In this document: positions 2,468 to 45,671 of the stretch, in pieces | Layout: every line of letters begins with the position of its first letter | How positions within the stretch are numbered: position 1 is the stretch's first letter | Sequence record: KF055347 | Origin: Escherichia phage JH2 | DNA length: 64,000 nt | Reading direction: 5' to 3' (one strand) | Made by a program: the position numbers and the translations under genes | Notes under the pieces: model-generated | The model's input: the letters and a program-made list of their open reading frames with translations, nothing else | What the model was told of the DNA's origin: nothing | The model's database searches: none

Positions 2468-2757
2468 GGTGTTACCTCTCTGCGTGATACTTTACCATTT
2501 ACAGTTATCTCATAAGCTTCTAATAAATCACTTTCAGATTTAACAGGACTTTTAAAAGTATCATCATAAACATTAATTTGCAATACAGGCTTTTTATACT
2601 CCCTGCAACTATTCCATAAGCAAATTACTACGCGACGGCCTTTTATTTTGCCGTGTAACCATTCCATAACATCATGACTATTTCTTGATGTCTCGATAAA
2701 ATCAATTTTATTGAGTAATTTGCTTAGATTTTCACGCACTTGATTTGATAATTTCAT
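2461..2757 (-). CDS. hypothetical early protein
   Basis: 98-aa ORF; 7-nt overlap with the downstream gene. Confidence 0.45.
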   Translation of the reverse strand: MKLSNQVRENLSKLLNKIDFIETSRNSHDVMEWLHGKIKGRRVVICLWNSCREYKKPVLQINVYDDTFKSPVKSESDLLEAYEITVNGKVSRREVTPC

Positions 2758-5773: not shown

Positions 5774-6010
5774 TTAACATCTCTCCCAAGATTCTTTATC
5801 TTCTGAAGGTTTTACACGCTGTCCTTCATGGTCTACCCAGATACATCCACAACCTTCACAGATTACTGGCATTGCATAGCCAGCTTTAAAGTCGTCTTCA
5901 GTGATAAGACCTTTTAAGTCACCTGTATCACGTCCGAACATTTCGATAGCACAGTCTTTACAGAAGTCAGCCATGAATAATTGCCTCTTGAATGATGATG
6001 CCTTTACCAC
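5774..6010 (-). CDS. hypothetical Cys-rich protein
   Basis: 78 aa with CKDC..CEGCGC. Confidence 0.4.
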   Translation of the reverse strand: MVKASSFKRQLFMADFCKDCAIEMFGRDTGDLKGLITEDDFKAGYAMPVICEGCGCIWVDHEGQRVKPSEDKESWERC

Positions 6011-6200
6011 AACGACTTTTAAAATCTTCTAATGGTTCAGAGAAGAAGTTACGGAAATGGTTACTGCACTCACGTTTCATCACCTTCTTGTAAGTTAACG
6101 CATCTTCTCCTGCAAACGGAACGACTTCATGTCTCCCTTTGAATACTGCTGAACTTACAATCTTACGTGTCTTTTTATCTCTGGCTAGTATTACTTTCAT
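5967..6200 (-). CDS. hypothetical protein
   Basis: 77-aa ORF; 44-nt overlap with the downstream ORF. Confidence 0.35.
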   Translation of the reverse strand: MKVILARDKKTRKIVSSAVFKGRHEVVPFAGEDALTYKKVMKRECSNHFRNFFSEPLEDFKSRCGKGIIIQEAIIHG

Positions 6201-6507
6201 AGTTTACCTTCTCAGTTAGCTCATACAAATCAACATGCTCAATACTATCAATGTTGATACCAATCTTTTTGAAGCGTTCTATCACTTCGTTGTCAGTCAT
6301 CCATATCAGACACCAATGATTGTGGATGGATTCTTCAAGAAGGTCAACACAATCTTTAAAAGTCTTTGTGTCACTTCTTGTTCCGACTACTGCGATTGTC
6401 CCATACAACCACTTACCATTACCATATGATACTTGTGCTACGCCAACTTCTTTATCTTTCTCGTAGTAAACGGCTACAAAGTCTCTTCCATTAATCTGCA
6501 TAGTCAC
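6175..6507 (-). CDS. hypothetical protein
   Basis: 110-aa ORF. Confidence 0.45.
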   Translation of the reverse strand: MTMQINGRDFVAVYYEKDKEVGVAQVSYGNGKWLYGTIAVVGTRSDTKTFKDCVDLLEESIHNHWCLIWMTDNEVIERFKKIGINIDSIEHVDLYELTEKVNYESNTSQR

Positions 6508-6773
6508 TTCCTCGTTTTAAGAACTGCTAAGATTTCTTTAGAGTCTGGTAAGAACCATGTGTAGTGATTCTCTTTGATTTCTGGATGAGTGTCAACCTTT
6601 ATTTTACACTCTTTACCAACATGCTTAAGCTGTGCTGTGACACCTTGCATAAAGATATGACACATCACGTTGTCCATAATGGTTGGTGAGAAATCAACCC
6701 GCATATAAGTTTCTTTTGGTCGTGGTAGCAGTAAGTACCCTTCTACATAGAAAGTGTCTTCATTCTCTGTCAT
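6504..6773 (-). CDS. hypothetical protein
   Basis: 89-aa ORF, 4-nt overlaps at both ends. Confidence 0.45.
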   Translation of the reverse strand: MTENEDTFYVEGYLLLPRPKETYMRVDFSPTIMDNVMCHIFMQGVTAQLKHVGKECKIKVDTHPEIKENHYTWFLPDSKEILAVLKTRK

Positions 6774-7039
6774 TGCTGTTTGTTTCCTAATAAAATCATA
6801 TCAATAAGGTTATTAGCTTTGATTGTGCACTGGTAAAAACCATCACGATAAAACTCAAGGGCTGCTGCCACATCACTACCAGTATTACCTTTGACAGTGA
6901 ATCTTGATTCTTCTTGAGTATACTTGTCACTCTCACTTACTTGGGAGTTTTTGAATGTACTGTTCACTTTGCTCGTTGAACACCCTGACATAATTATCAG
7001 TAACACAAACATTATAAAACTCTGGCTTAGTCTTTTCAT
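6770..7039 (-). CDS. putative o-spanin (outer-membrane lipoprotein, Rz1-like)
   Basis: 89 aa; signal peptide with lipobox IMSG-C; overlaps the 3-prime end of the upstream TM protein gene out of frame. Confidence 0.45.
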   Translation of the reverse strand: MKRLSQSFIMFVLLIIMSGCSTSKVNSTFKNSQVSESDKYTQEESRFTVKGNTGSDVAAALEFYRDGFYQCTIKANNLIDMILLGNKQQ

Positions 7040-7280
7040 ACGTTAGTACCTCTTTTGTATGCTTATTCTTAGCAAGCACATCTTTCAAATCATTTTTGTA
7101 ATTGGTGCTGAGTGTGGCTAAACCTTCCTGATAAGCATCTTTGGCAACACTTATTAGTTTCTCATTATTTAGCTCAGCTTCAGCAACTTGATAATCTCTG
7201 TAAGAGTATCCTCCCCAGACACCTGCCCCAACTAAGAAAACAATTATGAAAGTAGCTTGACAAAACTCTTTAAATGTCAT
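6933..7280 (-). CDS. putative i-spanin (Rz-like, N-terminal TM plus periplasmic helical domain)
   Basis: 115 aa; single N-terminal TM ATFIIVFLVGAGVWGGY then charged helical region; overlapped by a lipoprotein gene. Confidence 0.45.
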   Translation of the reverse strand: MTFKEFCQATFIIVFLVGAGVWGGYSYRDYQVAEAELNNEKLISVAKDAYQEGLATLSTNYKNDLKDVLAKNKHTKEVLTYEKTKPEFYNVCVTDNYVRVFNEQSEQYIQKLPSK

Positions 7281-35328: not shown

Positions 35329-35585
35329 GTAAGCCTCTTTTAAGTAACTATTAAGTTTTAATCTTTTATCTTAACGTATTCTATACGTTATACTTTAAAG
35401 CTTTTTAAAAGCTATTAAATAATCTTTTAAGAGTTTTAAAGTATCTGTATAGTTAAACTGTTAAGTAACCTTTTAAGTAAAAACCCACTTCGCAAAGATT
35501 AACACCTTGTCAAGTACATTGTCAACTTGCTTTTTATAATTTTTTGCAGTAATGTATGTGGTTAATGATTTTAGAGGGAGTAAAA
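35329..35585. promoter_or_regulatory. divergent AT-rich intergenic control region
   Basis: 257 bp between divergent gene blocks; repeated CTTTTAAG motifs, duplicated TTGTCAA, TATAAT hexamer; GAGGGAG RBS before the polymerase start. Confidence 0.45.
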
Positions 35586-37728
35586 ATGGAAAACGTAGAT
35601 TTTAAAAACTTACATTTAGTTGGCGATACAGAAACTGATGGTTTACTCCTTGAGTTCACTAAAGTGCACGTAATGGCTTTCGCAGACTATAAATCTGACG
35701 ATGAAGAGCCACCTGTATGGGTCTTTACAGATGAGCCTATCCTCGGCCACAAGTATACCAAGTACATTAAAGGTGGTTTGCGTGAAGGTGTCGAGTTTGC
35801 GTTAAAGGCAAAACGGCTTTGCATCCATAATGGTCTGGGGTATGACTGGTGGGTTTTCAATCACATTGCACCTGATTTGTGGAACTTTGATAATCCAAAG
35901 TGTAAACCGTGGAGTAATTTCTTTCAGGATTCTCTTATCCAGTCTCGTGTTCAGTGGATGGATAGACCAACTCCAAAGGGTTATAAAGGTGCTCATGGTT
36001 TGGCTGCATGGGGTGCTCGTGTTGGTGTACGTAAACCAGAGATTGAACATTGGGGTGTGTGGAATGCAGAAATCTTCACTCGTGTTGTAGAAGATATCCG
36101 TATTAACGCCAAAACTAAACGTGCACTGGATAATGAATATCTCAAGCTGAAGAAGTGTGGCGTAGATACTTATGAAACCTACATGCGAGCTAAAGAAACA
36201 TCTTTCTGGATGAGTCAACAAGCTATCAATGGTTGGAAAGCTGATAAAGAACTTATGGAGTTCCATGTAAAGGAACTTGACAAGTTGACTAATGAGCTTG
36301 CTTCAGAAGTTGAACCACATCTTCCTCCAACTATTAAGACCAAAGGTAAAGTCACTGGAGAAGAGTTTGCAAAAGCTTGGAATGAGTATGTTGAAGCATT
36401 CGGTCATGCAGATGGACTGAAGAGAATTACCAAGTACCCTAAGACAAAGTATCGTCAGCAGGTACGTAACGGTGAGATGCAGACATATGAAATTAAGCCA
36501 TTTGGTAAGCCAACTACAAAGATTTTTAACATTGAAAAGCGGAATTGCTATACACCAACCAACTCTGTAACTGGTGAAGAGTACAAGGAAGGTTTTGTAG
36601 CAATGAAGGATGCTCGTGCAATTTGCAATGAGTTGAATGCAAAGATTGGTAAGAAATGCAAAGACTGGAAGCCAGTAAAAACAGTTAAAACTGTGAAGTA
36701 CTATAACAGTCATGTTGTGAACCACTTTGAGCTTGAGTCAAGTCGCTACACAGGTTTGATTGATGCACCATATACACCAATTGAGTTTGAAGTTTCTCGA
36801 ATGACTCAGGTGGCTGTTGTGAAGGACTACTTGAAATCAGTTGGTTGGATTCCTGATGACTGGAACTATAAGAAAGACTCTGATGGTCGTCCTGTTAAGG
36901 TTTGTCGTTTCAAAGACAACAAAAAGATGATTACCAAACATCCTAAATGGGATGAGATGGTTGAACGGTGCGGTTTGAGTTATGTTGAACATGAAGGTGT
37001 ACAGTACATTGAGCATAACTGGTCTGTTAAGAAGTACACAGATTTGCTTGAACCTTGCTTAATCCGTACTTCACCAAAACTTACTGAATCATCTTATGAT
37101 ACGATTGAAGGTGAGCTTGGGCAGAAGATTGCAAAATACTATACCTTGATGCACAGACGCAGAACTATTGAGAACTCAAAGGATGATGAAAAAGGTTGGT
37201 TAAACCAGATTCGTCCTGATGGTCGCCTTAGTGCTGGTGCAATGGTGTTTGGTACTTCAACTGGACGTATGACACAATATGGTATTGTAAACGTACCGTC
37301 TGGCGCTGCTGTCTATGGAGCACCCATGAGGGAAGTTTGGACTTGTGAAGAGGGTACTAATATTGTTTCAGCCGACATGAATAGCGCCCAACTTGTGCTG
37401 CTGTGTAACTTTATGGGTGATAAAGATTTCACTAAAGCGGTGACAGAGGGTAAAGAAGAGGTTGAGTTTGTCAAACAAGAGGATGGTAGATACTATTGCA
37501 AACATTTTAACCAGTATCTAAACCCAGCTATTGACAAGTATTTACATTATGATTCTGAAAATGACTTATACGTGGTGTACTCAGGGACTGATGCACATAC
37601 TTTAAACAGTATCTACTTCAGCCTTAATAAAGAGGAAGACATCTTGACATGTCGAGCTACTCAGGATGCAAATCTTCTTCAAGAAATTAGTAAAGGCCGT
37701 AAGAAAGCCAAAAATGGCATTTATGCGT
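35586..37728 (+). CDS. DNA polymerase family A, exon 1 (3-prime-5-prime exonuclease plus polymerase through first half of motif B)
   Basis: Exo I motif LVGDTETDGL; ends ..RKKAKNGIY inside motif B; start moved to ATG 35586 with RBS. Confidence 0.75.
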
Positions 37729-38530
37729 CAGTGGCGCATGTAAAACGTTGTGAATTGCTGGAAGCCTAAGTCTGTAAAGATATGGTAATCAGCAGCGAAG
37801 TCTCTGTTAGGACTCCTAAAACAAAGGAGAGAGACAATGGCAGGTTACGAAGAGAGATTATGCACTGAGTGTGGTACGGAGTTTAAACCATATCAATACA
37901 ATCAGAAACGGTGCAGAAGTTGTGTATTAAAGTTTGACAGAAGGGCAGAACACAGGGTTCTTACTAAGAAATGCCCTAGTTGTGAGAAGGTGTTCATGCC
38001 GAGAACAGCAAGGCAAGTTTATTGTTCGTCACATTGCGGTGAGAAAGGTAGAGTTAAGAATTACTACCTAAGAACATATGGATTGGAAAGAGAAGAGGTT
38101 GAGTCTCTACTCCGTGACTGTGATTACAAATGTCAAATTTGTGGCGGCGAAGGTTTTATCATGAATGGTTCACGACACAAGGCTAAACTTGTTGTTGACC
38201 ATGACCATAAAACCGGAAAGGTAAGAGGTATGTTATGCCACAATTGCAACAGAGCTTTGGGGTTGCTTGCAGATAGTGTTGATAACATGCAAAGAGCGAT
38301 TGACTATCTAAGCAAATGATATAACTATAGAGATTCCTAACAGAGAAACGTTCAGAGACTATCGAAAAGCATACTTAACGTATGAACTGAGTAGAGTAGG
38401 GTGGTAAGCTAATGACCATCCCCAAGTGCAACGGTAGCATCACTGCTACGTGATATAGTCCGACACTCCGTAGAAATGCGGAGAAGTTCATAAGAGAACT
38501 GGTACACCTTGCGAGTGTATTGACCAGATG
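37729..38530 (+). mobile_element. group I intron in the DNA polymerase gene carrying an EndoVII-type HNH ORF
   Basis: polymerase motif B split (..KNGIY / ..LFGAGDEKFAK); exon 1 ends in U at 37728; intron ends in G at 38530; conserved GATATAGTCC at 38452-38461; boundaries inferred. Confidence 0.65.
37837..38319 (+). CDS. intron-encoded HNH endonuclease, endonuclease VII-like
   Basis: 160 aa; VVDHDHKTGKVRGMLCHNCNRALG typical of EndoVII-type HNH; several CxxC pairs; good RBS. Confidence 0.65.
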   Translation: MAGYEERLCTECGTEFKPYQYNQKRCRSCVLKFDRRAEHRVLTKKCPSCEKVFMPRTARQVYCSSHCGEKGRVKNYYLRTYGLEREEVESLLRDCDYKCQICGGEGFIMNGSRHKAKLVVDHDHKTGKVRGMLCHNCNRALGLLADSVDNMQRAIDYLSK

Positions 38531-39087
38531 TATTGTTCGGGGCTGGCGATGAGAAATTTGCTAAGACGATTAAAGCATCTACAACTGAGGAAGGTGCTTT
38601 AACTAAGCAAACATACTTTGTACGTCTCCCTAAAATTAAGAAGTTGATAGATAATTTAGAAGCAGACTTCAAAGCCACTAAGAAGGCTCTTGAAGAGGTA
38701 TTTGGTAAGACTGCCGCAATCTCTAAAGGGGGGTTTGTAAAGGTTGCTGGAGCTTGGTTGTGGTGTAAATCTCCACATAAGTTATTGAATTATTTGCTTA
38801 TGGGTTCGGAAAGTCAGGTTCAGAATGAAGCCATCAACCTCGCTTGTAGAAGAACTTGTGAAGAGGGTCTTACAAAGTTGAATGGTCGAAAACCAGCTAT
38901 TGGCGCTAGATTGCTTTTAGCATATCACGATGAGAATAGTTGGGAGTGTCCAGAAGACATGACGCAGGATGTTAAAGCAGTAATTGACTGGATGTATGGT
39001 CAAGCATCAAGAAATTTAGGGCTTAAGGAGGAAACTCTCGTAACTGGCACTGGTAAAGTTGGTAAAAATTGGCTTGAGGTACACTGA
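38531..39087 (+). CDS. DNA polymerase family A, exon 2 (second half of motif B through C-terminus)
   Basis: begins LFGAGDEKFAK aligning with T7 gp5 ..YGAGDEKIG; no ATG start, consistent with an exon. Confidence 0.7.
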
Positions 39088-39148
39088 TTAGTATTGACAA
39101 GGTGCTCATGGAAGAGTACCTTATACAATATCTTATATAGGAGGTCAC

Positions 39149-39367
39149 ATGACGCTTTCAGAGATTGAAGTTCAGTTGCAATGTGCAGGTTATTCTCAAA
39201 AAGAGATTGAAGGGATGTTTATTGTTCTTTGCAGTAGCTGTAGGAATTTGAAGGTAAAACCTGAAGTTCTACGTAGAGTCGATATCTTTATTGCTGGAGG
39301 CAAAATCGCAAAAGATAAGACGGGTTACTTAAAAGGTGAGCGTGTAAACATTGAGACTTTACTATGA
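39149..39367 (+). CDS. hypothetical small protein, paralog A
   Basis: 72 aa; AGGAGG RBS; C-terminus IAGGKIAKDKTGYLKGERVNIETLL similar to ORF 39570..39782. Confidence 0.5.
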   Translation: MTLSEIEVQLQCAGYSQKEIEGMFIVLCSSCRNLKVKPEVLRRVDIFIAGGKIAKDKTGYLKGERVNIETLL

Positions 39368-39573
39368 GCCACCGTGGAAGAACCCATGCAGCAATGATGA
39401 AAGGTGCTTCAAAGGAAACTATCAAGAATCGTAAACAGAAGTTGTTTGAGAGGATGAACAGGTTAATTGACAATTCATCTCTTTCAGGTTCTGAGAAGGT
39501 TTTCTTGAAAGGTAATCTGAAAAGCATTGCACAAGAACTTATTGACATTGAGTATTGGAGACACCAAAAATGA
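39364..39573 (+). CDS. hypothetical basic protein
   Basis: 69-aa ORF, ATGA coupling at both ends. Confidence 0.4.
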   Translation: MSHRGRTHAAMMKGASKETIKNRKQKLFERMNRLIDNSSLSGSEKVFLKGNLKSIAQELIDIEYWRHQK

Positions 39574-39782
39574 CACTTGCAGACGTTATTCAGCAACTTC
39601 ACAACAACTGCTACACTCCAGAGTTGATTCAGGAGATGCTCATTGTAGTAATACCTAGTAAGTTCGTAAAAGGTTTTAATCGTGACTCCTTAATGTCTGC
39701 ACATATCATTATTGTTGACGGTAAGATTGCAAGAGACCGTACAGGAGTCCTTAAGGGTGAACGTATTAGCATTGACATCTGA
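39570..39782 (+). CDS. hypothetical small protein, paralog B
   Basis: 70 aa from ATG 39570; IVDGKIARDRTGVLKGERISIDI parallels paralog A; upstream DNA motif repeated at 39774-39803. Confidence 0.5.
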   Translation: MTLADVIQQLHNNCYTPELIQEMLIVVIPSKFVKGFNRDSLMSAHIIIVDGKIARDRTGVLKGERISIDI

Positions 39783-39799
39783 GTATTGGAGATACCAAA

Positions 39800-39955
39800 A
39801 TGAAACGCAAAGTAAAATTCTTTAGTTTATATGGAAGAGTCGGTAAAGGTTTTGATTGGCAACTCCTACGTTCAGATGTTAAAAGCAACGAGTTAGCACA
39901 GCTTATTATAAACTATCGACGAACGTACAGAGAAGTAGAACATCGTGAACAGTAA
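39800..39955 (+). CDS. small basic protein (not in ORF track, under 60 aa)
   Basis: hand translation MKRKVKFFSLYGRVGKGFDWQLLRSDVKSNELAQLIINYRRTYREVEHREQ; preceded by the duplicated leader motif. Confidence 0.3.
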   Translation: MKRKVKFFSLYGRVGKGFDWQLLRSDVKSNELAQLIINYRRTYREVEHREQ

Positions 39956-39968
39956 CAGGAGAAGTATT

Positions 39969-40205
39969 ATGTGGAAAGCAGTAATTGTGCTTAGTGTTAT
40001 CTTTCTATCTGGCTGTAATCCCTCTTACGAGGACAAAAACGCTTCTTATAGCCTCCCACCAGAGATGCAAGATTGCAAAGTCTATAAGTTACATGGTGAT
40101 GCCATAAGCAGAGACATTGTTGTTGTCAGATGTCCAAACTCTCAAACAACAACATCTTATAGCTATGGTAAAAATGGTCAATCACACACTACTGTTATTG
40201 AGTGA
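39969..40205 (+). CDS. putative lipoprotein
   Basis: signal peptide MWKAVIVLSVIFLSG-C with lipobox; start at ATG 39969 behind AGGAGA RBS; longest ORF begins 39945. Confidence 0.5.
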   Translation: MWKAVIVLSVIFLSGCNPSYEDKNASYSLPPEMQDCKVYKLHGDAISRDIVVVRCPNSQTTTSYSYGKNGQSHTTVIE

Positions 40206-40215
40206 GGTGTTCAAG

Positions 40216-40422
40216 ATGGAAGTTCTAGTAAACTATATCTACTGTTATGATACTGTTCACTCCACTACAACGGTAGCCCAACGTAACCCAATCGTCCCAC
40301 GAGAAGGTGAGTTGGTTCGAATCGAGGGTTGGACTTACACTGTGGAAAGCATCATTCATAAGTTTGATGTTGCTGGTGATGTTCAAGTTATTGACGTAGA
40401 GATTGGTGGTAAGAGAAAATGA
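40216..40422 (+). CDS. hypothetical small protein
   Basis: ORF 40117..40422 trimmed to internal Met MEVLVNY to avoid overlapping the lipoprotein gene. Confidence 0.35.
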   Translation: MEVLVNYIYCYDTVHSTTTVAQRNPIVPREGELVRIEGWTYTVESIIHKFDVAGDVQVIDVEIGGKRK

Positions 40423-40578
40423 AACCTAAGCAAACAATGACAGATGCAACCTTCACAGTACACAGTTTCGATAGATTGCACATCAAAGACACAAAAGATA
40501 CACCAAAATGCGTTGTACATTTTATTAAAAGGCATAGTAACATGTCCTATATGAAATCTGACAAAGGCAATATCACAA

Positions 40579-40770
40579 ATGAATAAAGAAGACAAGCATA
40601 AAAATGCTGTACGGACTCCTGATGGAAAGGTTCAATCCTTCATCCTGACAGTTGGTGGAAATCCGTTTCGTTGCCACTGCGGAGCAAACTGTTTTCATAA
40701 ACCAGATAAAAATGACTTAGAGCTTTACGCATGTAATGCTTGCAATACTTGGTATCACTCAGAGGAATAA
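40579..40770 (+). CDS. hypothetical Cys-rich small protein
   Basis: 63 aa; CHCGANC...CNAC. Confidence 0.4.
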   Translation: MNKEDKHKNAVRTPDGKVQSFILTVGGNPFRCHCGANCFHKPDKNDLELYACNACNTWYHSEE

Positions 40771-40771
40771 A

Positions 40772-41875
40772 ATGACAATACTGTACAAACAAAATAAAGA
40801 CGGCTCTTTTAGCGTCTGGTCATGCGTTGCTGTAGGTGACAAAGTTGTTACCACGTATGGCAAAGAAAATGGCAAGATGATGTTTGAAGAGTATACAGCA
40901 GAACCTAAAAACATCGGTAAAAAGAATGAGCGTAACGCTGAACAACAAGCTCTCTTTGAAGTTGCTGCAAAGTATAAAAAGCAGGTTGACCGCAAAGGTT
41001 ATGCTTACACAAAAGAGTCTGCACAGAATACTGAGAAGGTAGGTGTACAGCTTGCTCATGATGCTGCAAAGGTTAGCCATGCAAAGTATCTGAAGTTCCC
41101 TGCTGATGCTCAACCGAAACTTGATGGTGTCCGTTGTAGGATTTCAAGGCACTTGAGTATTGGCAGTGTATTTACAGCATATTCTCGTGAGAATACTGTT
41201 TACAAAATCCCTACTGAACTAATACCTGACATTATGGCAATGTTAAGGCTCCACAAAGATGTTGATGAATTTGATGGAGAGATTTATGCTCATGGGTGGG
41301 ACTTAGAAGATATCGTCTCCATGATTAAAAATGAAGACAATCCTGACAGACACTTGCTCAAGTTTTACTGGTATGATATCTGCGACAGTACTAAGACGTG
41401 GCCTGAGCGTAGAGATATCATTGAGACTTCACCATTGAATGACTTTAGAGACGGCTGTAAAGTTGTTCCTGTTAAGTCTCGTCGTGTGAACTCTTGGGAA
41501 GAGTTTGATGAAGCTCATGATAAGTGGGTTGAAGCTAAGTTTGAAGGTGCAATGTACCGTTCAATCTCTGAAGAATCTTTCTACGAGTGTTGTCACCGTT
41601 CATACTTCTTGATTAAGCACAAGAAGATGCACACTGAAGAGTTTAAAGTGACTGGTGTCAAGACCGATAAACGTGGTCATGGCAAGTTCGTTGTAGAGAC
41701 TCTTCCTAACGTCTTTGTAGATGTATCATGGAAGACTACTCATGAGAAGAAACAGTATCTTGCTGAGCATCCTGAAGAGTTTATCGGGAAACCTTTAACG
41801 GTTCAGTTCCAGAAGATGACTCGTAAGGGGTCTTTACAGTTCCCTGTTGGTCTAGTTATACGAGATTATGAATAA
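40772..41875 (+). CDS. ATP-dependent DNA ligase
   Basis: adenylation motif KLDGVRC (KxDG); start at ATG 40772 after GAGGA RBS; longest ORF begins 40736. Confidence 0.75.
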   Translation: MTILYKQNKDGSFSVWSCVAVGDKVVTTYGKENGKMMFEEYTAEPKNIGKKNERNAEQQALFEVAAKYKKQVDRKGYAYTKESAQNTEKVGVQLAHDAAKVSHAKYLKFPADAQPKLDGVRCRISRHLSIGSVFTAYSRENTVYKIPTELIPDIMAMLRLHKDVDEFDGEIYAHGWDLEDIVSMIKNEDNPDRHLLKFYWYDICDSTKTWPERRDIIETSPLNDFRDGCKVVPVKSRRVNSWEEFDEAHDKWVEAKFEGAMYRSISEESFYECCHRSYFLIKHKKMHTEEFKVTGVKTDKRGHGKFVVETLPNVFVDVSWKTTHEKKQYLAEHPEEFIGKPLTVQFQKMTRKGSLQFPVGLVIRDYE

Positions 41876-41881
41876 AAGTTG

Positions 41882-41909
41882 TTGACATAGAAAATTTGGT
41901 GAGTATACT
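41882..41909 (+). promoter_or_regulatory. sigma70-like promoter candidate (TTGACA-N16-TATACT)
   Basis: TTGACA at 41882-41887 and TATACT at 41904-41909; inverted repeat GGTGAGTA / TACTCACC spans the -10. Confidence 0.45.
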
Positions 41910-42043
41910 GAGCAGCATAAACCAACGGGTACTCACCAGCATCACTTAAGAGTCTTCTAAAAGGGTTTTTAAGTGAGGTTCAGTGTTGTATGTTTTGGTA
42001 TGGTTTGGTAAGGTAGGGTTTGGTATGGAAGGATGGCAGTAGC

Positions 42044-42107
42044 CTTATAAAAATCTGCCAAATAAGCTATAAAATCTGTTGACAAGTCAGGTGTTATAGC
42101 TTATTTT
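42044..42107 (+). promoter_or_regulatory. promoter/operator candidate: TTGACA flanked by a perfect 12-bp inverted repeat
   Basis: AATAAGCTATAA (42061-42072) and TTATAGCTTATT (42094-42105) bracket TTGACA (42079-42084); direct repeats of TATAAAA(A)TCTG; TATTTT 17 nt after the -35. Confidence 0.45.
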
Positions 42108-42151
42108 TATACTCAATGTAATACAAAATTTAATATAACTTTGAGGTCATT

Positions 42152-42535
42152 ATGAAAAAGATTTTATTAGCTGCTGCAATGGTTATGGCAATGAATTTAC
42201 CAGTCAATGCAACAGAACTCCCCAATGTGGACTTATCAGGTGTTCCAGAAGACACTTGCCAGATTGTAAAAGGTGTTGCTCTATCTAATGGTGAGTTACT
42301 TAAACCAATCTCTGAAGAGTCTTTGACAGAGATGACTGATAAGGTAACTGACTATCAGTATCGCGTTCTTGCAGAGTATTTCCTGCAATCTGCAAATATT
42401 AAAGAGAAACACCATGATGATATTGATGTACAGGCTATGCTCAACCATCGTATTCAGTTTAAAGAAGATTTGATGCAAAAAGCTATGTACGGTGTTGAGT
42501 ATTTCTTAGAAAACAGAAGCTGCACAGGTATTTGA
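42152..42535 (+). CDS. hypothetical secreted protein
   Basis: 127 aa; Sec-type signal MKKILLAAAMVMAMNLPVNA. Confidence 0.5.
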   Translation: MKKILLAAAMVMAMNLPVNATELPNVDLSGVPEDTCQIVKGVALSNGELLKPISEESLTEMTDKVTDYQYRVLAEYFLQSANIKEKHHDDIDVQAMLNHRIQFKEDLMQKAMYGVEYFLENRSCTGI

Positions 42536-42536
42536 T

Positions 42537-42749
42537 ATGGCTCTTAAAAAGTTACATCCCAGAAGCGGTTATGGTAAGATAATTGATGATACAGATGGCT
42601 TTACAGTCTTTACAGTTATCTGTCAAGATGATTCACAGATTGAAAAGGCTCTTGACGATTATCTTAATGATGAACGTGAAAAGGTTAGGGCTACAAACAT
42701 AGATTCATTGATTGACACTTCACGTAAACGGAAGAAGAAAGATGAATGA
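42537..42749 (+). CDS. hypothetical protein
   Basis: 70-aa ORF, Lys-rich C-terminus. Confidence 0.4.
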   Translation: MALKKLHPRSGYGKIIDDTDGFTVFTVICQDDSQIEKALDDYLNDEREKVRATNIDSLIDTSRKRKKKDE

Positions 42750-43041
42750 GGTTTTTGACCCTTATGCTCCACAAGATGATTGGGAGGCTGACAGAGAGGC
42801 TGAAATGGAGAGTTATATTTGTCCAATGGATGTAGACGAAATGAGAGATTTCGTTGCACATCGTTTTAAGAGAGAGATTAAATCCAGAGGTCTTTCTCAA
42901 GAGCAAGTTGCTAAAATTTGTGGTATCTCTCAGGCTCGTGTATCCAACATAATCAATCTCACTGGTAATGTCTCTCTTGAGTTTATGTTGGAAGTATGTG
43001 AAAAATTTGGTGTTAATTTTAATTTAAGGTTGGCAGATTAA
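42742..43041 (+). CDS. helix-turn-helix (XRE/Cro-like) DNA-binding protein
   Basis: RGLSQEQVAKICGISQARVSNIIN is a classic HTH; acidic N-terminal region; start at internal ATG 42742. Confidence 0.55.
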   Translation: MNEVFDPYAPQDDWEADREAEMESYICPMDVDEMRDFVAHRFKREIKSRGLSQEQVAKICGISQARVSNIINLTGNVSLEFMLEVCEKFGVNFNLRLAD

Positions 43042-43042
43042 T

Positions 43043-43402
43043 ATGAAACGTGAAAACATTATCCACTCCGAAAACTTTGCATTAGGCTTTTATGGTGTAC
43101 CTACTCACCTTGAAAAGTATTATGGTGTGAAGATTCTTTCCAACCTCATTATGGCTTACAAAGATGGTAAGATTAAGCATACTGAGAAGAAACGTGTCAT
43201 GGGTTACATGGCTGTAGGTTCAGCAATCTCAAACATTAAGCTGGAAACAACTAGCAGCCAGATTGTGAAAGACCACTTCATCAAAGAGCTTTACCACAAT
43301 CTTGATGGTGTAGATGTTCAGGCTGTTTGGCTGGATGTTGACGGTCACAACTACACAAGCTTCGTTTTCAAAAACGATGACATTAAATGTTTGTTCCCAT
43401 AA
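43043..43402 (+). CDS. hypothetical protein
   Basis: 119-aa ORF. Confidence 0.45.
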   Translation: MKRENIIHSENFALGFYGVPTHLEKYYGVKILSNLIMAYKDGKIKHTEKKRVMGYMAVGSAISNIKLETTSSQIVKDHFIKELYHNLDGVDVQAVWLDVDGHNYTSFVFKNDDIKCLFP

Positions 43403-43415
43403 TAGGTGATTAACT

Positions 43416-43931
43416 ATGATTGATATCTACTTACAAGATGCTCATGCAGACTTCCTTAAAGTGATGCTTAAAAAGTTTATGGCTTCACAGTATGAGAATG
43501 AAGCATCTTTTAAAATAGTTACATGTGGCGATGAAGCTGGTTTTGTTGAGATTGAACATGAAGGTACTGGAAAGACTGTTTGCAAGTTACCTGATAGTAT
43601 GTTCTCTAGCACGTTCTTAGCAAAGACTAGTATAAATGTTAAGCTTGTTCCTCAGATTGAAACATACTCTGGTACAGATTATCCTAAAGGCTTTAAGTCA
43701 CTGATGAAGTACTTCTTAGATGACTTTGTGAGCAATCTTATTAGTGAGGTAACAGAAAGCCGTACAATATTAACTGTAGAGAATATCGGAGGGACTATCA
43801 GGATTACTTCTGACCGCTACTCTATGAGTCTCTTCGACTTCGTTCCTAAGAACTTTGATGGTATTCTGGATGAAGAAGATGACTGTGTAGACTTTATATT
43901 GGTTCTTGAACCAGTTTTTGAGGTTAAATAA
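43416..43931 (+). CDS. hypothetical protein
   Basis: 171-aa ORF. Confidence 0.45.
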   Translation: MIDIYLQDAHADFLKVMLKKFMASQYENEASFKIVTCGDEAGFVEIEHEGTGKTVCKLPDSMFSSTFLAKTSINVKLVPQIETYSGTDYPKGFKSLMKYFLDDFVSNLISEVTESRTILTVENIGGTIRITSDRYSMSLFDFVPKNFDGILDEEDDCVDFILVLEPVFEVK

Positions 43932-44192
43932 ATGAAAATTGAACACTGCTATGAGTCTGATGGAACACCCATTCGTTGTCCACATTGTGGGTGTACAGAC
44001 TTGCAAGGTGAAGTTCATATGATTGTTAATGGTCATATAGCTGAAGAAAGTACTACATGTGTTGGTTGTGGTGAGCATCTATCATTCTGGGCTTATGGTT
44101 CATACCAACCTACACCACACTTAATCTACCATAGCAATAAAGCTGTGAAGAATGTTATCAACTGGTTCATTAAGAAAGGATTTACAAAATGA
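43932..44192 (+). CDS. hypothetical zinc-ribbon protein
   Basis: 86 aa; CPHCGC...CVGCG. Confidence 0.45.
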   Translation: MKIEHCYESDGTPIRCPHCGCTDLQGEVHMIVNGHIAEESTTCVGCGEHLSFWAYGSYQPTPHLIYHSNKAVKNVINWFIKKGFTK

Positions 44193-44734
44193 TTAAATTA
44201 ATCTTTGCAAGTGGTGAAAATGGTGAGTTTGGTACTCCAACTGGTATGCCGTGGCCTCGACATAAACAGGATATGCAAGAGTTTAAGAGACTCACTAAAA
44301 ATAACTTAGTAGTGATGGGGAATGAGACTTTTAAGACTCTGGGTAGTAAACCTTTACCAGAACGTGCAAACCTCATCTTAACAAATTCTGTACCATACTT
44401 AGGCATAGACTTTGGCAAAGATGACGTAATGTATGCTAAAGCCAGTAAAGAGTCATTTGGAGCATTTTTGAAATATCTTGATAGCTCTATTGATGAAGAT
44501 ATCTTTGTAATTGGTGGTGCAGGTGTCCTTGTCAATGCTTTACCGTATGCTAGTGTGGTGTTCCATACTGTTTTCCATAAAGTTACTGAAGAAGCCACTG
44601 TGTATTTACCTTTTGAAAACTTCTTTGAGAAGCTGTATGATAACCGTGTATTTACAAAGGTACAGTCAAAACCATCAGAGGATGGTAAAGCAACTTTTGA
44701 AATTTATGTTCCACAAGTAAAAGGACACTTTTGA
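44189..44734 (+). CDS. frd: dihydrofolate reductase
   Basis: 181 aa; N-terminal IFASGENGEFG..GMPW resembles the DHFR fingerprint; immediately upstream of thymidylate synthase. Confidence 0.75.
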   Translation: MIKLIFASGENGEFGTPTGMPWPRHKQDMQEFKRLTKNNLVVMGNETFKTLGSKPLPERANLILTNSVPYLGIDFGKDDVMYAKASKESFGAFLKYLDSSIDEDIFVIGGAGVLVNALPYASVVFHTVFHKVTEEATVYLPFENFFEKLYDNRVFTKVQSKPSEDGKATFEIYVPQVKGHF

Positions 44735-44735
44735 T

Positions 44736-45635
44736 ATGTCACAAGCAGATACAAGTTACAAAAATATCCTGAACCATGTTTTATCCGTTGGTGAACTGCG
44801 TACTACACGAACTGGAGATGTTATCTCTGCATTTGCTCCACCTCAGTTTCGTTTTGATATGCGAACTGGTTTCCCGCTCTTAACATCTAAACAGGTGTTT
44901 ACACGGCAAGTTATTGGGGAAGCTTTATGGTTCCTGAATGGTGAGAATAAGCTTGGTGAACTCCGTTATCGTACTTGGGGTGAAAATGATGGGGAACGCT
45001 GGACTATCTGGTCAGATGATTTTAAACGCTGGTTAAGCTCTAATTATTCTTCTGAACAAGATTGGTTAGAAGATGCAGGTGGAAGAATCTATGGGGTTCA
45101 GTGGAGAAACTTTGAAGGCCATAACGGTTGTGTTGTAGACCAGTTAGATGCCTTAGTAACAAAGATGAAGGGTGATATCACAGACCGTTACATGCTTGTT
45201 AATGCTTGGAATGCAGCAGACATTGCAGCAAACTCAATGGCTTTAGCACCTTGTCATGTTCTGTTTCAGATTTATATCACTAATGAGGGTGAAGTTGACT
45301 TACAATGGTATCAGCGTTCAGTAGACACCTTTTTAGGACTTCCATTTAATATTGCATCTTATGGTTTTATTCTGGAAGTTCTTTGTAAGATGACTGGATA
45401 CACTCCACGGTACTTGATAGGTGTCTTTGGGGATACTCAGATTTATCAGAACCATATGAAACAGGTTTATGAACTGATGAACAATGAAGAGTTCCATGCA
45501 CCAACTTTTGAGATTGGTCTACAACTTAATACTTTAAGTGACCTAAAACATCTCACTGCAAGTGACTTTATCGGTGGCATTAACAACTACCAACATGCAG
45601 GAAAGATTGAAGCACCTTTATCAGTAGGTAAGTAA
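44736..45635 (+). CDS. thyA: thymidylate synthase
   Basis: 299 aa; catalytic-Cys context ALAPCHVLFQ; adjacency to DHFR; a dCMP hydroxymethylase-type relative cannot be excluded. Confidence 0.7.
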   Translation: MSQADTSYKNILNHVLSVGELRTTRTGDVISAFAPPQFRFDMRTGFPLLTSKQVFTRQVIGEALWFLNGENKLGELRYRTWGENDGERWTIWSDDFKRWLSSNYSSEQDWLEDAGGRIYGVQWRNFEGHNGCVVDQLDALVTKMKGDITDRYMLVNAWNAADIAANSMALAPCHVLFQIYITNEGEVDLQWYQRSVDTFLGLPFNIASYGFILEVLCKMTGYTPRYLIGVFGDTQIYQNHMKQVYELMNNEEFHAPTFEIGLQLNTLSDLKHLTASDFIGGINNYQHAGKIEAPLSVGK

Positions 45636-45644
45636 AACAAAAAA

Positions 45645-45664
45645 GGCTCCTTTTTATGGGAGCC
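45645..45664. terminator. bidirectional terminator-like hairpin between convergent blocks
   Basis: GGCTCC (45645-45650) pairs with GGAGCC (45659-45664), A/T-rich flanks. Confidence 0.5.
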
Positions 45665-45671
45665 TTAAATT

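What the first reader, a model, noticed from the sequence alone, without database searches (positions are those of the whole stretch)
39969..40205. Small lipoprotein in the replication block: possible superinfection-exclusion factor
The gene encodes a signal peptide with lipobox (VIFLSG-C) and a short mature domain with two Cys, placed among early genes rather than lysis genes. Small early phage lipoproteins are known to block the phage receptor or DNA entry after infection.
Basis: inference. Interest (0 to 1): 0.4.

Follow-up and report, generated by a model that had tools for sequence, protein, structure and literature searches.

The report
Conserved early phage lipoprotein, function unknown
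This is a real, strongly conserved gene for a small exported lipoprotein in a Felix O1-like phage; it belongs to a large family found almost only in virulent phages (Pfam DUF4884), nobody has tested what that family does, and the evidence here disfavours receptor blocking without ruling out other kinds of superinfection exclusion.

Summary
Window 39969..40205 (+) encodes a 78-aa lipoprotein precursor with a Shine-Dalgarno site, lipobox LSG|C16 and mature Cys36 and Cys55. It lies between the DNA polymerase and DNA ligase genes of a Felixounavirus. It is not the o-spanin: the phage's overlapping spanin pair is at 6770..7280 (-).

The protein belongs to phrog_902 / Pfam DUF4884, which has at least 647 clusters at 50% identity. 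The three Cys are invariant, and the motif Y-x-LPxEL-x-DCK...VVRCPNSxTTT...GK is conserved. Members occur in unrelated virulent phages of Escherichia, Salmonella, Vibrio, Acinetobacter, Aeromonas, Erwinia and Pseudomonas. Of the six loci with readable annotation or Pfam context, three lie among replication or rII genes and three among unnamed small genes or regulators. No other gene is shared across lineages. A motif scan found only one locus in 185,579 bacterial genomes.

The mature domain has no sequence similarity to Llp or Cor, and neither a profile search of PDB sequences nor fold searches of PDB matched anything (Rtp45 was not compared directly).

Superinfection exclusion is untested. 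Receptor blocking in the Llp/Cor manner is disfavoured: the gene is not at the receptor-binding-protein (RBP) locus, its core is conserved across hosts, and T1-like phages carry a Cor-type lipoprotein as well.

Best guess, at low confidence: an outer-membrane-anchored periplasmic factor that acts on a conserved envelope component.

The parts
39957..39961 (+). Shine-Dalgarno sequence AGGAG, 7 nt upstream of the ATG
   Evidence: Read directly from the sequence.
39969..40205 (+). CDS of the 78-aa lipoprotein precursor (DUF4884 / phrog_902 family), stop codon included
   Evidence: ORF list. phrog_902 E=3.9e-17. 100% identical by tblastn to Felixounavirus LF110P2. Median dN/dS 0.09.
39969..40013 (+). 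Signal peptide (aa 1-15: MWKAVIVLSVIFLSG), predicted to be removed by signal peptidase II
   Evidence: Sequence. The hydrophobic core and lipobox are conserved family-wide. Cleavage itself is inferred.
40005..40016 (+). Lipobox L13-S14-G15-C16. C16 would be the acylated N-terminus of the mature protein, followed by Asn at +2
   Evidence: C16 is present in 157 of 157 aligned homologues, G/A/S at -1 in 157 of 157, and L at -3 in 117 of 157.
40014..40202 (+). Mature 63-aa domain, 7.0 kDa, predicted as a small five-strand beta fold
   Evidence: AlphaFold2 with a 109-sequence alignment: mean pLDDT 74.7, strands at residues 4-7, 22-27, 35-39, 44-51 and 54-61. Mass.
40047..40085 (+). Conserved motif Y27-x-L-P-x-E-[LM]-x-D35-C36-K37-[VI]-Y39
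   Evidence: Column counts: Y27 111/157, L29 123, P30 154, E32 106, D35 133, C36 157, K37 104, Y39 107.
40122..40154 (+). Conserved motif V52-V-R-C55-P-N-S-x-T-T-T62. C55 is the likely disulfide partner of C36
   Evidence: Column counts: V52 127/157, R54 134, C55 156, P56 149, N57 122, S58 132, T60 143, T62 125. C36 and C55 flank the beta2-beta3 hairpin in the model. The disulfide itself is inferred.
35556..45666 (+). Surrounding + strand replication and nucleotide-metabolism block that contains the gene, ending at a hairpin terminator
   Evidence: ORF list. Terminator-like hairpin at 45643..45666. Syntenic annotations in phages Shy, D4 and Felix O1 name DNA polymerase, ligase, dihydrofolate reductase and thymidylate synthase.

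Best explanation
The gene encodes a small lipoprotein of the DUF4884 / phrog_902 family.

**Steps with good support**
- It is a real gene under strong purifying selection.
- It carries a Sec/SPII-type lipoprotein signal.
- The mature 63-aa domain has an invariant Cys pair.
- It sits in the replication gene block and has no phage-encoded partner conserved across lineages.

**Steps inferred from established rules**
- It is exported, acylated on Cys16 and cleaved by signal peptidase II.
- DsbA should oxidise C36-C55 into a disulfide that clamps a beta-hairpin.
- The spacing between the lipid Cys and the first mature Cys is short and conserved (19-21 residues), so the domain should sit close against the membrane.

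**Proposed mechanism (hypothesis)**
[quoted passage not shown] It does not act on the phage's own receptor. The likely effect is to change the infected cell's envelope to the phage's benefit. The most probable benefit is protection against later-arriving phages at a step after adsorption (tail penetration, cell-wall digestion, DNA entry, or lysis from without). That would make it a receptor-independent form of superinfection exclusion.
For: **Family and conservation**
- The window is a Felixounavirus.
- The ORF matches phrog_902 at E=3.9e-17.
- The family has 647 clusters at 50% identity with E<=1e-3, nearly all 75-110 aa.
- Every homologue returned by the protein-database searches carries a precomputed PF16225 = DUF4884 tag.
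- The lipobox Cys and both mature Cys are invariant, and the motifs are conserved.
- The lipid-Cys to first-Cys spacing is 19-21 residues in about 90% of members.
- A subfamily of 24 members has an extra CGKxC pair, as expected for an oxidising compartment.
- Median dN/dS is 0.09.

**Structure**
- The predicted all-beta fold places C36 and C55 at the open end of a hairpin.

**Distribution and context**
- Homologues occur in unrelated virulent phages of seven or more host genera.
- Of six loci with annotation or Pfam context, three lie among replication or rII genes (Vibrio T5-like, Pseudomonas T4-like, Acinetobacter). The other three lie among regulators or unnamed small genes (4MG, Erwinia and Escherichia jumbo phages).
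- Within +-6 kb, the lipoprotein gene is the only gene shared across 27 diverse loci.
- The family is essentially phage-restricted: 38 loci in viral contigs against 1 locus in 185,579 bacterial species genomes for the same motif.
- The single bacterial copy lies in an island in a truncated comM gene, next to an ABC-3C system. I read that system as anti-phage defence from my own knowledge.
- T1-like phages carry a divergent DUF4884 lipoprotein together with a Cor-type lipoprotein at the RBP locus, so the two do not look redundant.

**Lysis role already filled**
- The spanin role is filled elsewhere in the window.
Against: - There is no experimental or expression data for any family member.
- The host target is unknown.
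- No fold or sequence link exists to any protein of known function, so the protective role is argued from anatomy, context and analogy only.
- Early timing is inferred from gene position.
- The model is only moderately confident (pLDDT 74.7).
- The local Pfam-A copy gave no DUF4884 hit for this protein or its close relatives. Family assignment therefore rests on PHROG, on precomputed tags and on my own profile searches.
- The link from the T1-like proteins to this family is weak (19 bits against my profile; phrog_902 E=3.8e-4).
Confidence: 0.4

Rival explanations
1. Receptor-blocking exclusion in the manner of T5 Llp, T1/phi80 Cor or Rtp45. [quoted passage not shown]
For: - It has the same size class, lipid anchor, short tether and Cys pair, and it is probably expressed before lysis.
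- One public record annotates a family member as 'Cor superinfection exclusion protein'.
- Some members give weak phrog_1119 (Cor) hits at E about 1e-3.
Against: - Profile-profile comparison with Cor aligns only the signal peptide and lipobox (20 columns). The same is true for T1 Cor alone and for T5 Llp.
- There are no PDB sequence or fold matches.
- The gene is not at the RBP locus, where known exclusion lipoproteins sit (PMC11990801, PMC12685063).
- From my own knowledge, Felix O1-type phages use LPS as receptor.
- The invariant core is shared by phages of different hosts and different receptors.
- T1-like phages have both kinds of lipoprotein.
Confidence: 0.12
2. Envelope take-over for a purpose other than exclusion. 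Possibilities include silencing an envelope stress sensor or an envelope-located defence system, inhibiting a host cell-wall hydrolase or outer-membrane assembly machine, limiting vesicle shedding, or tuning the time of lysis.
For: - The anatomy and distribution are the same as for the best explanation: a conserved core across hosts, a stand-alone gene, and restriction to virulent phages.
- Nothing in the data separates 'protects against other phages' from 'modifies the envelope for replication'.
Against: - I know of no precedent for a phage outer-membrane lipoprotein with such a role.
- The gene matches no PADLOC defence model.
- The one bacterial copy sits beside a defence system, which leans towards a defence or exclusion role. 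This is a single case.
Confidence: 0.25
3. A lysis component: a second o-spanin or an accessory protein of the spanin complex.
For: - It is a small outer-membrane lipoprotein with Cys residues.
- It gives weak PHROG hits to Rz-like spanin families, restricted to the signal peptide (E=0.036 and 0.26).
Against: - The phage has an overlapping i-spanin/o-spanin pair at 6933..7280 and 6770..7039 (-). These match phrog_1152 at E=8.9e-42 and phrog_456 at E=7.4e-5.
- This gene has no adjacent or embedding i-spanin gene.
- Its mature domain is a predicted beta fold with only 4 Pro in 63 residues.
- It lies in the replication block.
- T1-like genomes with a relative also have their own spanin.
Confidence: 0.05

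Closest known systems
Pfam DUF4884 (PF16225) / PHROG phrog_902, an uncharacterised lipoprotein family
   Same: - Direct profile match to phrog_902.
- All homologues returned by the protein-database searches are tagged PF16225.
- Length, lipobox, Cys pattern and motifs are shared.
- GenBank names relatives 'DUF4884 domain-containing protein'.
   Different: - Nothing differs structurally; this is a typical member.
- The family has no known function.
- The local Pfam-A copy did not report the hit.
- The name DUF4884 is also applied to a Bacteroides protein, BT_3183. I did not test its relation to the phage proteins.
T5 Llp (lytic conversion lipoprotein that blocks FhuA)
   Same: - A virulent-phage lipoprotein precursor of about 77 aa, anchored in the outer membrane, with a Cys pair in the mature part.
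- Llp is documented as expressed early (PMC11990801 ref. 136; PMC9586334). For this gene, early expression is only inferred.
   Different: - The mature domains are not alignable.
- Cys spacing differs: in Llp the pair is N-proximal plus C-terminal, here it is +20 and +39 from the lipid Cys.
- llp is cited as lying next to the receptor-binding gene, whereas this gene lies between polymerase and ligase.
- Llp is specific for FhuA, whereas this family spans many hosts.
Cor (T1, phi80, N15; PHROG phrog_1119)
   Same: - A small outer-membrane lipoprotein.
- Some DUF4884 members get weak phrog_1119 hits, and one is annotated as Cor.
   Different: - hhalign between Cor and DUF4884 profiles aligns only the signal peptide and lipobox.
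- The Cor motifs (SMPERTC, RAGYPFSF) are absent.
- Cor sits at the tail-fibre locus.
- T1-like phages can carry both kinds of lipoprotein.
Rtp45 (exclusion lipoprotein of phage Rtp, binds LptDE)
   Same: [quoted passage not shown]
- Rtp45 pairs beta-strands with its target (PMC12685063). The conserved beta-strand-rich core here could bind in a similar way (inference).
   Different: - Profile and fold searches of PDB gave no match. I did not check that the Rtp45 entry is in the copies searched, and I made no direct comparison.
- Rtp45 is encoded at the RBP locus of small siphophages.
T4 Sp (spackle) and Imm
   Same: From my own knowledge, these are early-expressed envelope proteins of a virulent myovirus that act after adsorption and do not depend on the receptor. 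Sp inhibits the tail lysozyme and Imm blocks DNA entry. This is the functional class that best fits my proposal.
   Different: - There is no sequence or fold relation. The PDB searches returned nothing, and I made no direct comparison with Sp or Imm.
- From my own knowledge, Sp is a soluble helical periplasmic protein and Imm an inner-membrane protein; neither is a lipoprotein.

Membership tests
DUF4884 / phrog_902 | Significant match to the family profile | tested here: met
   phrog_902 E=3.9e-17 over residues 1-76. My own profile recovers 647 clusters. Homologues carry a precomputed PF16225:DUF4884 tag.
DUF4884 / phrog_902 | Hit to PF16225 in a direct Pfam-A scan of this protein | tested here: inconclusive
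   The local Pfam-A copy reported no PF16225 hit at E<=10 for this protein or nine close relatives, although the precomputed tables list it for all of them. This is probably a difference in model version or library; I did not resolve it.
DUF4884 / phrog_902 | Lipobox Cys, two conserved mature Cys, and the DCK / VVRCPNSxTTT / GK motifs | tested here: met
   All are present in the window protein. Column counts are, and the Cys are invariant.
T5 Llp family | Sequence homology of the mature domain | tested here: not met
   The Llp sequence was verified as 100% identical to T5 llp. hhalign against the family profile aligns residues 1-18 only. BLASTP of the mature parts gives E=0.81.
T5 Llp family | Gene adjacent to the receptor-binding protein gene | tested here: not met
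   The gene lies between polymerase and ligase. The ORF corresponding by synteny to the tail-fibre gene of phage D4 (46317..48662, - strand) is about 6 kb away in another transcription unit.
T5 Llp family | Binds and inactivates FhuA | not testable with these tools
   This needs binding or plating assays.
Cor (phrog_1119) | Profile-level homology beyond the signal peptide | tested here: not met
   phrog_1119 gives E=0.22 over residues 1-21 only. hhalign of a 15-sequence Cor alignment against the 104-sequence family alignment aligns 20 columns, all signal peptide and lipobox.
Rtp45-type LptD-binding exclusion lipoprotein | Sequence or fold similarity to the solved Rtp45 structure | tested here: inconclusive
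o-spanin (Rz1-like) | Gene embedded in, overlapping or adjacent to an i-spanin gene in the lysis region | tested here: not met
   The neighbours are small genes of unknown function (phrog_2381, phrog_4427). The i-spanin at 6933..7280 (-) already has an overlapping lipoprotein partner at 6770..7039 (-).
o-spanin (Rz1-like) | Short, proline-rich, largely unstructured mature domain | tested here: not met
   The mature domain has 4 Pro in 63 residues and a predicted five-strand beta fold at pLDDT 74.7.
Bacterial lipoprotein (SPII substrate) in general | n-region, hydrophobic core and lipobox [LVI][ASTVI][GAS]C within the first ~25 residues | tested here: met
   The precursor starts MWK-AVIVLSVIF-LSG-C16, and this is conserved family-wide.
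Bacterial lipoprotein (SPII substrate) in general | Actual acylation, SPII cleavage and outer-membrane localisation | not testable with these tools
   Outer-membrane sorting is inferred from Asn at +2, under the Asp+2 retention rule for Enterobacteria.

The most novel reading that the evidence does not exclude
DUF4884 proteins may be a new class of exclusion factor that does not depend on the receptor. In this reading a 7-kDa disulfide-clamped lipoprotein binds one universally conserved outer-membrane or periplasmic machine, for example BamA, LptDE, or the Lpp/Pal/OmpA links to the cell wall. By doing so it locks the envelope of the infected cell against tail penetration, DNA entry or lysis from without by any later phage. 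This would explain why unrelated virulent phages of Escherichia, Vibrio, Acinetobacter, Aeromonas and Pseudomonas all keep the same invariant core.
Probability: 0.2. Interest if true: 0.7.

Novelty: new member of a known kind. Interest (0 to 1): 0.35.

Why it matters
If the family has a single conserved host target, that target would be a weak point of the Gram-negative envelope that many unrelated virulent phages have independently found worth hitting.

- **For phage therapy:** a broad exclusion or envelope-hardening factor would affect how phages in a cocktail interfere with each other.
- **For envelope biology:** a 63-residue binder of an essential outer-membrane machine would be a useful probe or an inhibitor lead.

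As things stand, this is an ordinary member of a large family of unknown function. Its value is as a well-defined, cheap candidate for testing.

Tried and rejected

- The direct Pfam-A and NCBIfam scans gave only noise. PADLOC gave nothing.
- The afdb50 fold library was unavailable.
- Literature searches for PF16225 and phrog_902 found nothing. DUF4884 found only two annotation tables. A search for Felixounavirus transcriptomes was swamped by irrelevant papers, so there is no expression timing.
- The 104-sequence alignment was too diverse for the search for related loci. A 29-sequence subset worked.

**Ideas tested and dropped**
- Spanin: rejected, because the real pair is elsewhere.
- Cor and Llp homology: rejected by profile comparison.
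- A conserved neighbouring gene across lineages: none was found in 5 and then 27 loci.
- A second copy in the phage: none in the window, and one copy in the complete D4 genome.
- A family member in T1 or pSf-1: none. A divergent one is present in the T1-like phage JLBYU26.

**Not available**

Full report
**What the window is**

The 3.5 kb around the finding is 88-96% identical at nucleotide level to more than 250 Felix O1-like myoviruses (Felixounavirus, Ounavirinae) of Escherichia, Salmonella, Shigella and Citrobacter. Synteny with annotated relatives (phages Shy, D4 and Felix O1) gives the local map. A + strand block runs from DNA polymerase (35556) through a run of small genes, DNA ligase (40736..41875) and a transcriptional regulator, to the ORFs at 44189..44734 and 44736..45635. 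The syntenic genes in D4 are annotated dihydrofolate reductase and thymidylate synthase. The block ends at a hairpin terminator at 45643..45666. Minus-strand blocks flank it on both sides: nucleotide metabolism, rIIA/B and spanins on one side, tail and head genes on the other.

**Check of the observation**

- The ORF 39969..40205 (+) is as described. It has AGGAG 7 nt upstream of the ATG and encodes a 78-aa product, MWKAVIVLSVIFLSG|CNPSYEDKNASYSLPPEMQDCKVYKLHGDAISRDIVVVRCPNSQTTTSYSYGKNGQSHTTVIE.
- The lipobox L-S-G-C16 fits the consensus. The mature part is 63 aa and 7.0 kDa, with two further Cys, C36 and C55.
- An upstream in-frame GTG (39945) would add eight residues to the n-region without changing the mature protein. 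Public records annotate versions of 74-89 aa.
- Neighbouring genes are 13 nt upstream and 10 nt downstream, so the gene is packed into the operon.
- A crude lipobox scan of all six frames found this ORF and otherwise only short antisense ORFs. It missed the o-spanin, whose lipobox has Met at -3; I found that gene afterwards.
- Within Ounavirinae the gene is under strong purifying selection, with a median pairwise dN/dS of 0.09 over 105 pairs with dS>0.1.
The one soft point is 'early', which rests on position and not on expression data.

**It is not a lysis gene**

Phage D4 annotates an 'Rz-like spanin' downstream of polynucleotide kinase. The window equivalent is 6933..7280 (-), 115 aa with an N-terminal transmembrane segment, matching phrog_1152 at E=8.9e-42. 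Overlapping it in another frame is 6770..7039 (-), an 89-aa lipoprotein (MKRLSQSFIMFVLLIIMSG|CSTSK...) that matches phrog_456 (Rz-like spanin) at E=7.4e-5. This is a standard overlapping i-spanin/o-spanin pair, so the spanin role is already filled. The finding's gene has no i-spanin partner. Its mature domain is also not proline-rich and is predicted to be folded.

**The family**

- The protein matches PHROG phrog_902 (unknown function) at E=3.9e-17.
- A profile of ten close relatives, searched against 1.84 billion representative proteins, found 647 clusters at E<=1e-3 and 98 at E<=1e-10, nearly all 75-110 aa.
- Every homologue returned by the word-indexed search carries the precomputed tag PF16225, which is DUF4884. 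GenBank uses that name for relatives in T1-like phages.
- Oddly, the local Pfam-A copy gave no PF16225 hit for this protein or its close relatives. I could not resolve this, and I rely on the PHROG match and my own profile.
- In a 157-sequence alignment the lipid Cys and both mature Cys are invariant or nearly so (157, 157 and 156 of 157). The motif Y27-x-L-P-x-E-L-x-D-C36-K-[IV]-[YF] ... V-V-R-C55-P-N-S-x-T-T-T ... G67-K68 is strongly conserved.
- The lipid Cys and the first mature Cys are 19-21 residues apart in about 90% of members. The two mature Cys are 17-19 apart in most.
- Twenty-four members add a second pair (CGKxC), which fits an oxidising compartment.

**Structure**

**Distribution and context**

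- tblastn finds the family in about 580 phage records. These include Felix O1-like phages, 114-kb T5-like Vibrio phages (about 290 records), Vequintavirinae-type phages (4MG), 350-380-kb jumbo phages of Escherichia, Erwinia and Yersinia, T4-like phages of Pseudomonas and Aeromonas, and Acinetobacter, Klebsiella and Serratia phages.
- Six loci have readable annotation or Pfam context. In the Vibrio phage the gene lies between the origin-binding protein and helicase/ligase genes. In Pseudomonas phage PspYZU05 it lies just after rIIA-rIIB-dam. In an Acinetobacter phage-sized contig it lies after ribonucleotide reductase and Thy1. In 4MG and the two jumbo phages it lies among regulators or unnamed small same-strand genes.
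- In an all-against-all comparison of ORFs from 27 diverse loci, the lipoprotein is the only gene shared across lineages. It therefore travels and presumably acts alone.
- Scanning for the motif VVRCPNSxT found 38 loci in the viral-contig collection, on contigs up to 381 kb. The near-identical pattern VVRCPNSxT[ST] found a single locus among one genome each of 185,579 bacterial and archaeal species.
- That single case, in Hylemonella gracilis, lies in an island next to a truncated comM-type gene, an HTH regulator and an ABC-3C system. I read ABC-3C as an anti-phage defence system from my own knowledge.
- The family is therefore essentially a virulent-phage gene and not a prophage conversion gene.

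**Comparison with known exclusion lipoproteins**

- I verified the T5 Llp sequence against the T5 genome. Compared with the family profile, only the signal peptide aligns, and the mature parts give E=0.81.
- I extracted T1 Cor, built a 15-sequence Cor alignment and compared the profiles. Again only 20 columns of signal peptide and lipobox align.
- One jumbo-phage record annotates a family member as 'Cor'. The weak phrog_1119 hits of some members (E about 1e-3) are best explained by the shared signal peptide.
- Rtp45 and T4 Sp did not appear in any PDB search. I did not check that they are in the copies searched, and I made no direct comparison.
- In the literature, known exclusion lipoproteins of siphophages are encoded at the RBP locus and act on that phage's own receptor (PMC11990801, PMC12685063, PMC9586334). 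This gene is about 6 kb and a transcription unit away from the ORF that corresponds by synteny to the D4 tail-fibre gene.
- T1-like phage JLBYU26 carries a divergent DUF4884-type lipoprotein in its early region. That protein scores 19 bits over its full length against my profile, matches phrog_902 at E=3.8e-4, and is named DUF4884 in GenBank. The same phage also carries a Cor-type lipoprotein (phrog_1119 E=2e-6) at the tail-fibre locus. The published gene table of phage Henu8 shows the same pair.
- Two lipoproteins in one small genome argue that DUF4884 does something other than mask the receptor.

**How it most likely works**

- *Shown:* it is a real, conserved gene with a lipoprotein signal and an invariant Cys pair. 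It stands alone, is phage-restricted and sits in a replication block.
- *Inferred from established rules:* export is by Sec, followed by acylation and signal peptidase II cleavage at C16. [quoted passage not shown] DsbA oxidises C36-C55.
- *Hypothesis:* a core that stays invariant across phages with different hosts and receptors implies a target that is conserved across Proteobacteria. A membrane-hugging beta domain suggests that the target is an outer-membrane protein, or a membrane-proximal lipoprotein or cell-wall element. The benefit I consider most likely is protection of the infected cell after adsorption of further phages (blocking penetration, cell-wall digestion, DNA entry or lysis from without). 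That is functionally like T4 Sp/Imm, but with the anatomy of Llp/Rtp45.
- I put about 0.9 on the exported-lipoprotein part, about 0.3-0.35 on this specific benefit, and 0.4 on the explanation overall.
- The main rival is some other envelope take-over, such as stress-response or defence silencing, hydrolase inhibition or lysis timing. My data cannot separate it from the proposal.
- Receptor masking is disfavoured and a spanin role is nearly excluded.

**Novelty and verdict**

The sequence is already in hundreds of public phage genomes as 'hypothetical protein', and the family has a Pfam DUF number. The finding is therefore a typical member of a known but uncharacterised family. If it is an exclusion factor, it would be a new family within a known kind of system (small early phage lipoproteins), with a possibly new receptor-independent mode of action. 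Interest is moderate at 0.35: the gene is ordinary today, but it is an unusually clean, widespread and cheap candidate to test.

Noticed in passing
window 35556..39087 (+): The DNA polymerase gene is split into 35556..37769 (737 aa) and 38533..39087 (184 aa). These align to the N- and C-terminal parts of the uninterrupted polymerase of phage Shy (96% and 87% identity). The ~760-bp insert carries an HNH endonuclease ORF (37837..38319) and a sub-threshold Rfam group I intron hit at 37756..37846 (24.6 bits, E=8e-4). It is probably a mobile group I intron with a homing endonuclease.
   Followed up: partly
window 6770..7280 (-): An overlapping spanin pair. The i-spanin is 6933..7280 (115 aa, phrog_1152 E=8.9e-42). 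The o-spanin lipoprotein is 6770..7039 (89 aa, lipobox IMSG|C, phrog_456 E=7.4e-5). Several public annotations leave the o-spanin unnamed.
   Followed up: yes
window 42152..42535 (+): A second exported protein in the same + strand operon: 127 aa, with a signal-peptidase-I type signal peptide (MKKILLAAAMVMAMNLPVNA|TE), matching phrog_4332 of unknown function (E=4.4e-67). The phage therefore sends at least two proteins of unknown role to the periplasm from its replication block.
   Followed up: partly
window 39149..39367 and 39555..39782 (+): Two paralogous small genes (72 and 75 aa), both matching phrog_4230 (E=2.7e-36 and 7e-40), separated by one gene just upstream of the lipoprotein gene. The function is unknown.
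   Followed up: no
L014 (Hylemonella gracilis ATCC 19624, NZ_AEGR01000062.1) 5983..6261: This is the only bacterial-genome locus found with the family motif. It lies in an island next to a truncated Mg-chelatase/ComM-type gene, an HTH_3 regulator, an endonuclease/exonuclease/phosphatase-family protein and two ABC-3C (CTD10, DUF2326) proteins.
   Followed up: partly
L011 (Escherichia phage vB_Ec-M-J, OQ718158.1) 2501..2752: A DUF4884/phrog_902 member (E=5.2e-13) is annotated in GenBank as 'Cor superinfection exclusion protein'. Its phrog_1119 (Cor) hit is weak (E=9.4e-4, residues 1-49). Profile-profile comparison of the two families aligns only the signal peptide and lipobox, so the annotation looks like an over-call. 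The RefSeq T5 record likewise labels llp as 'Cor'.
   Followed up: yes
family members P0032, P0042, P0084, P0144, P0142, P0157, P0033, P0081, P0102: Some family members carry C-terminal extensions absent from the window protein. The types seen are repeats of a V-[IV]-D-G-V-x-Y motif, a 'KLTxEERKALGL' tail, and an extra module of about 40 aa with two more Cys. None of these matched a known domain.
   Followed up: no
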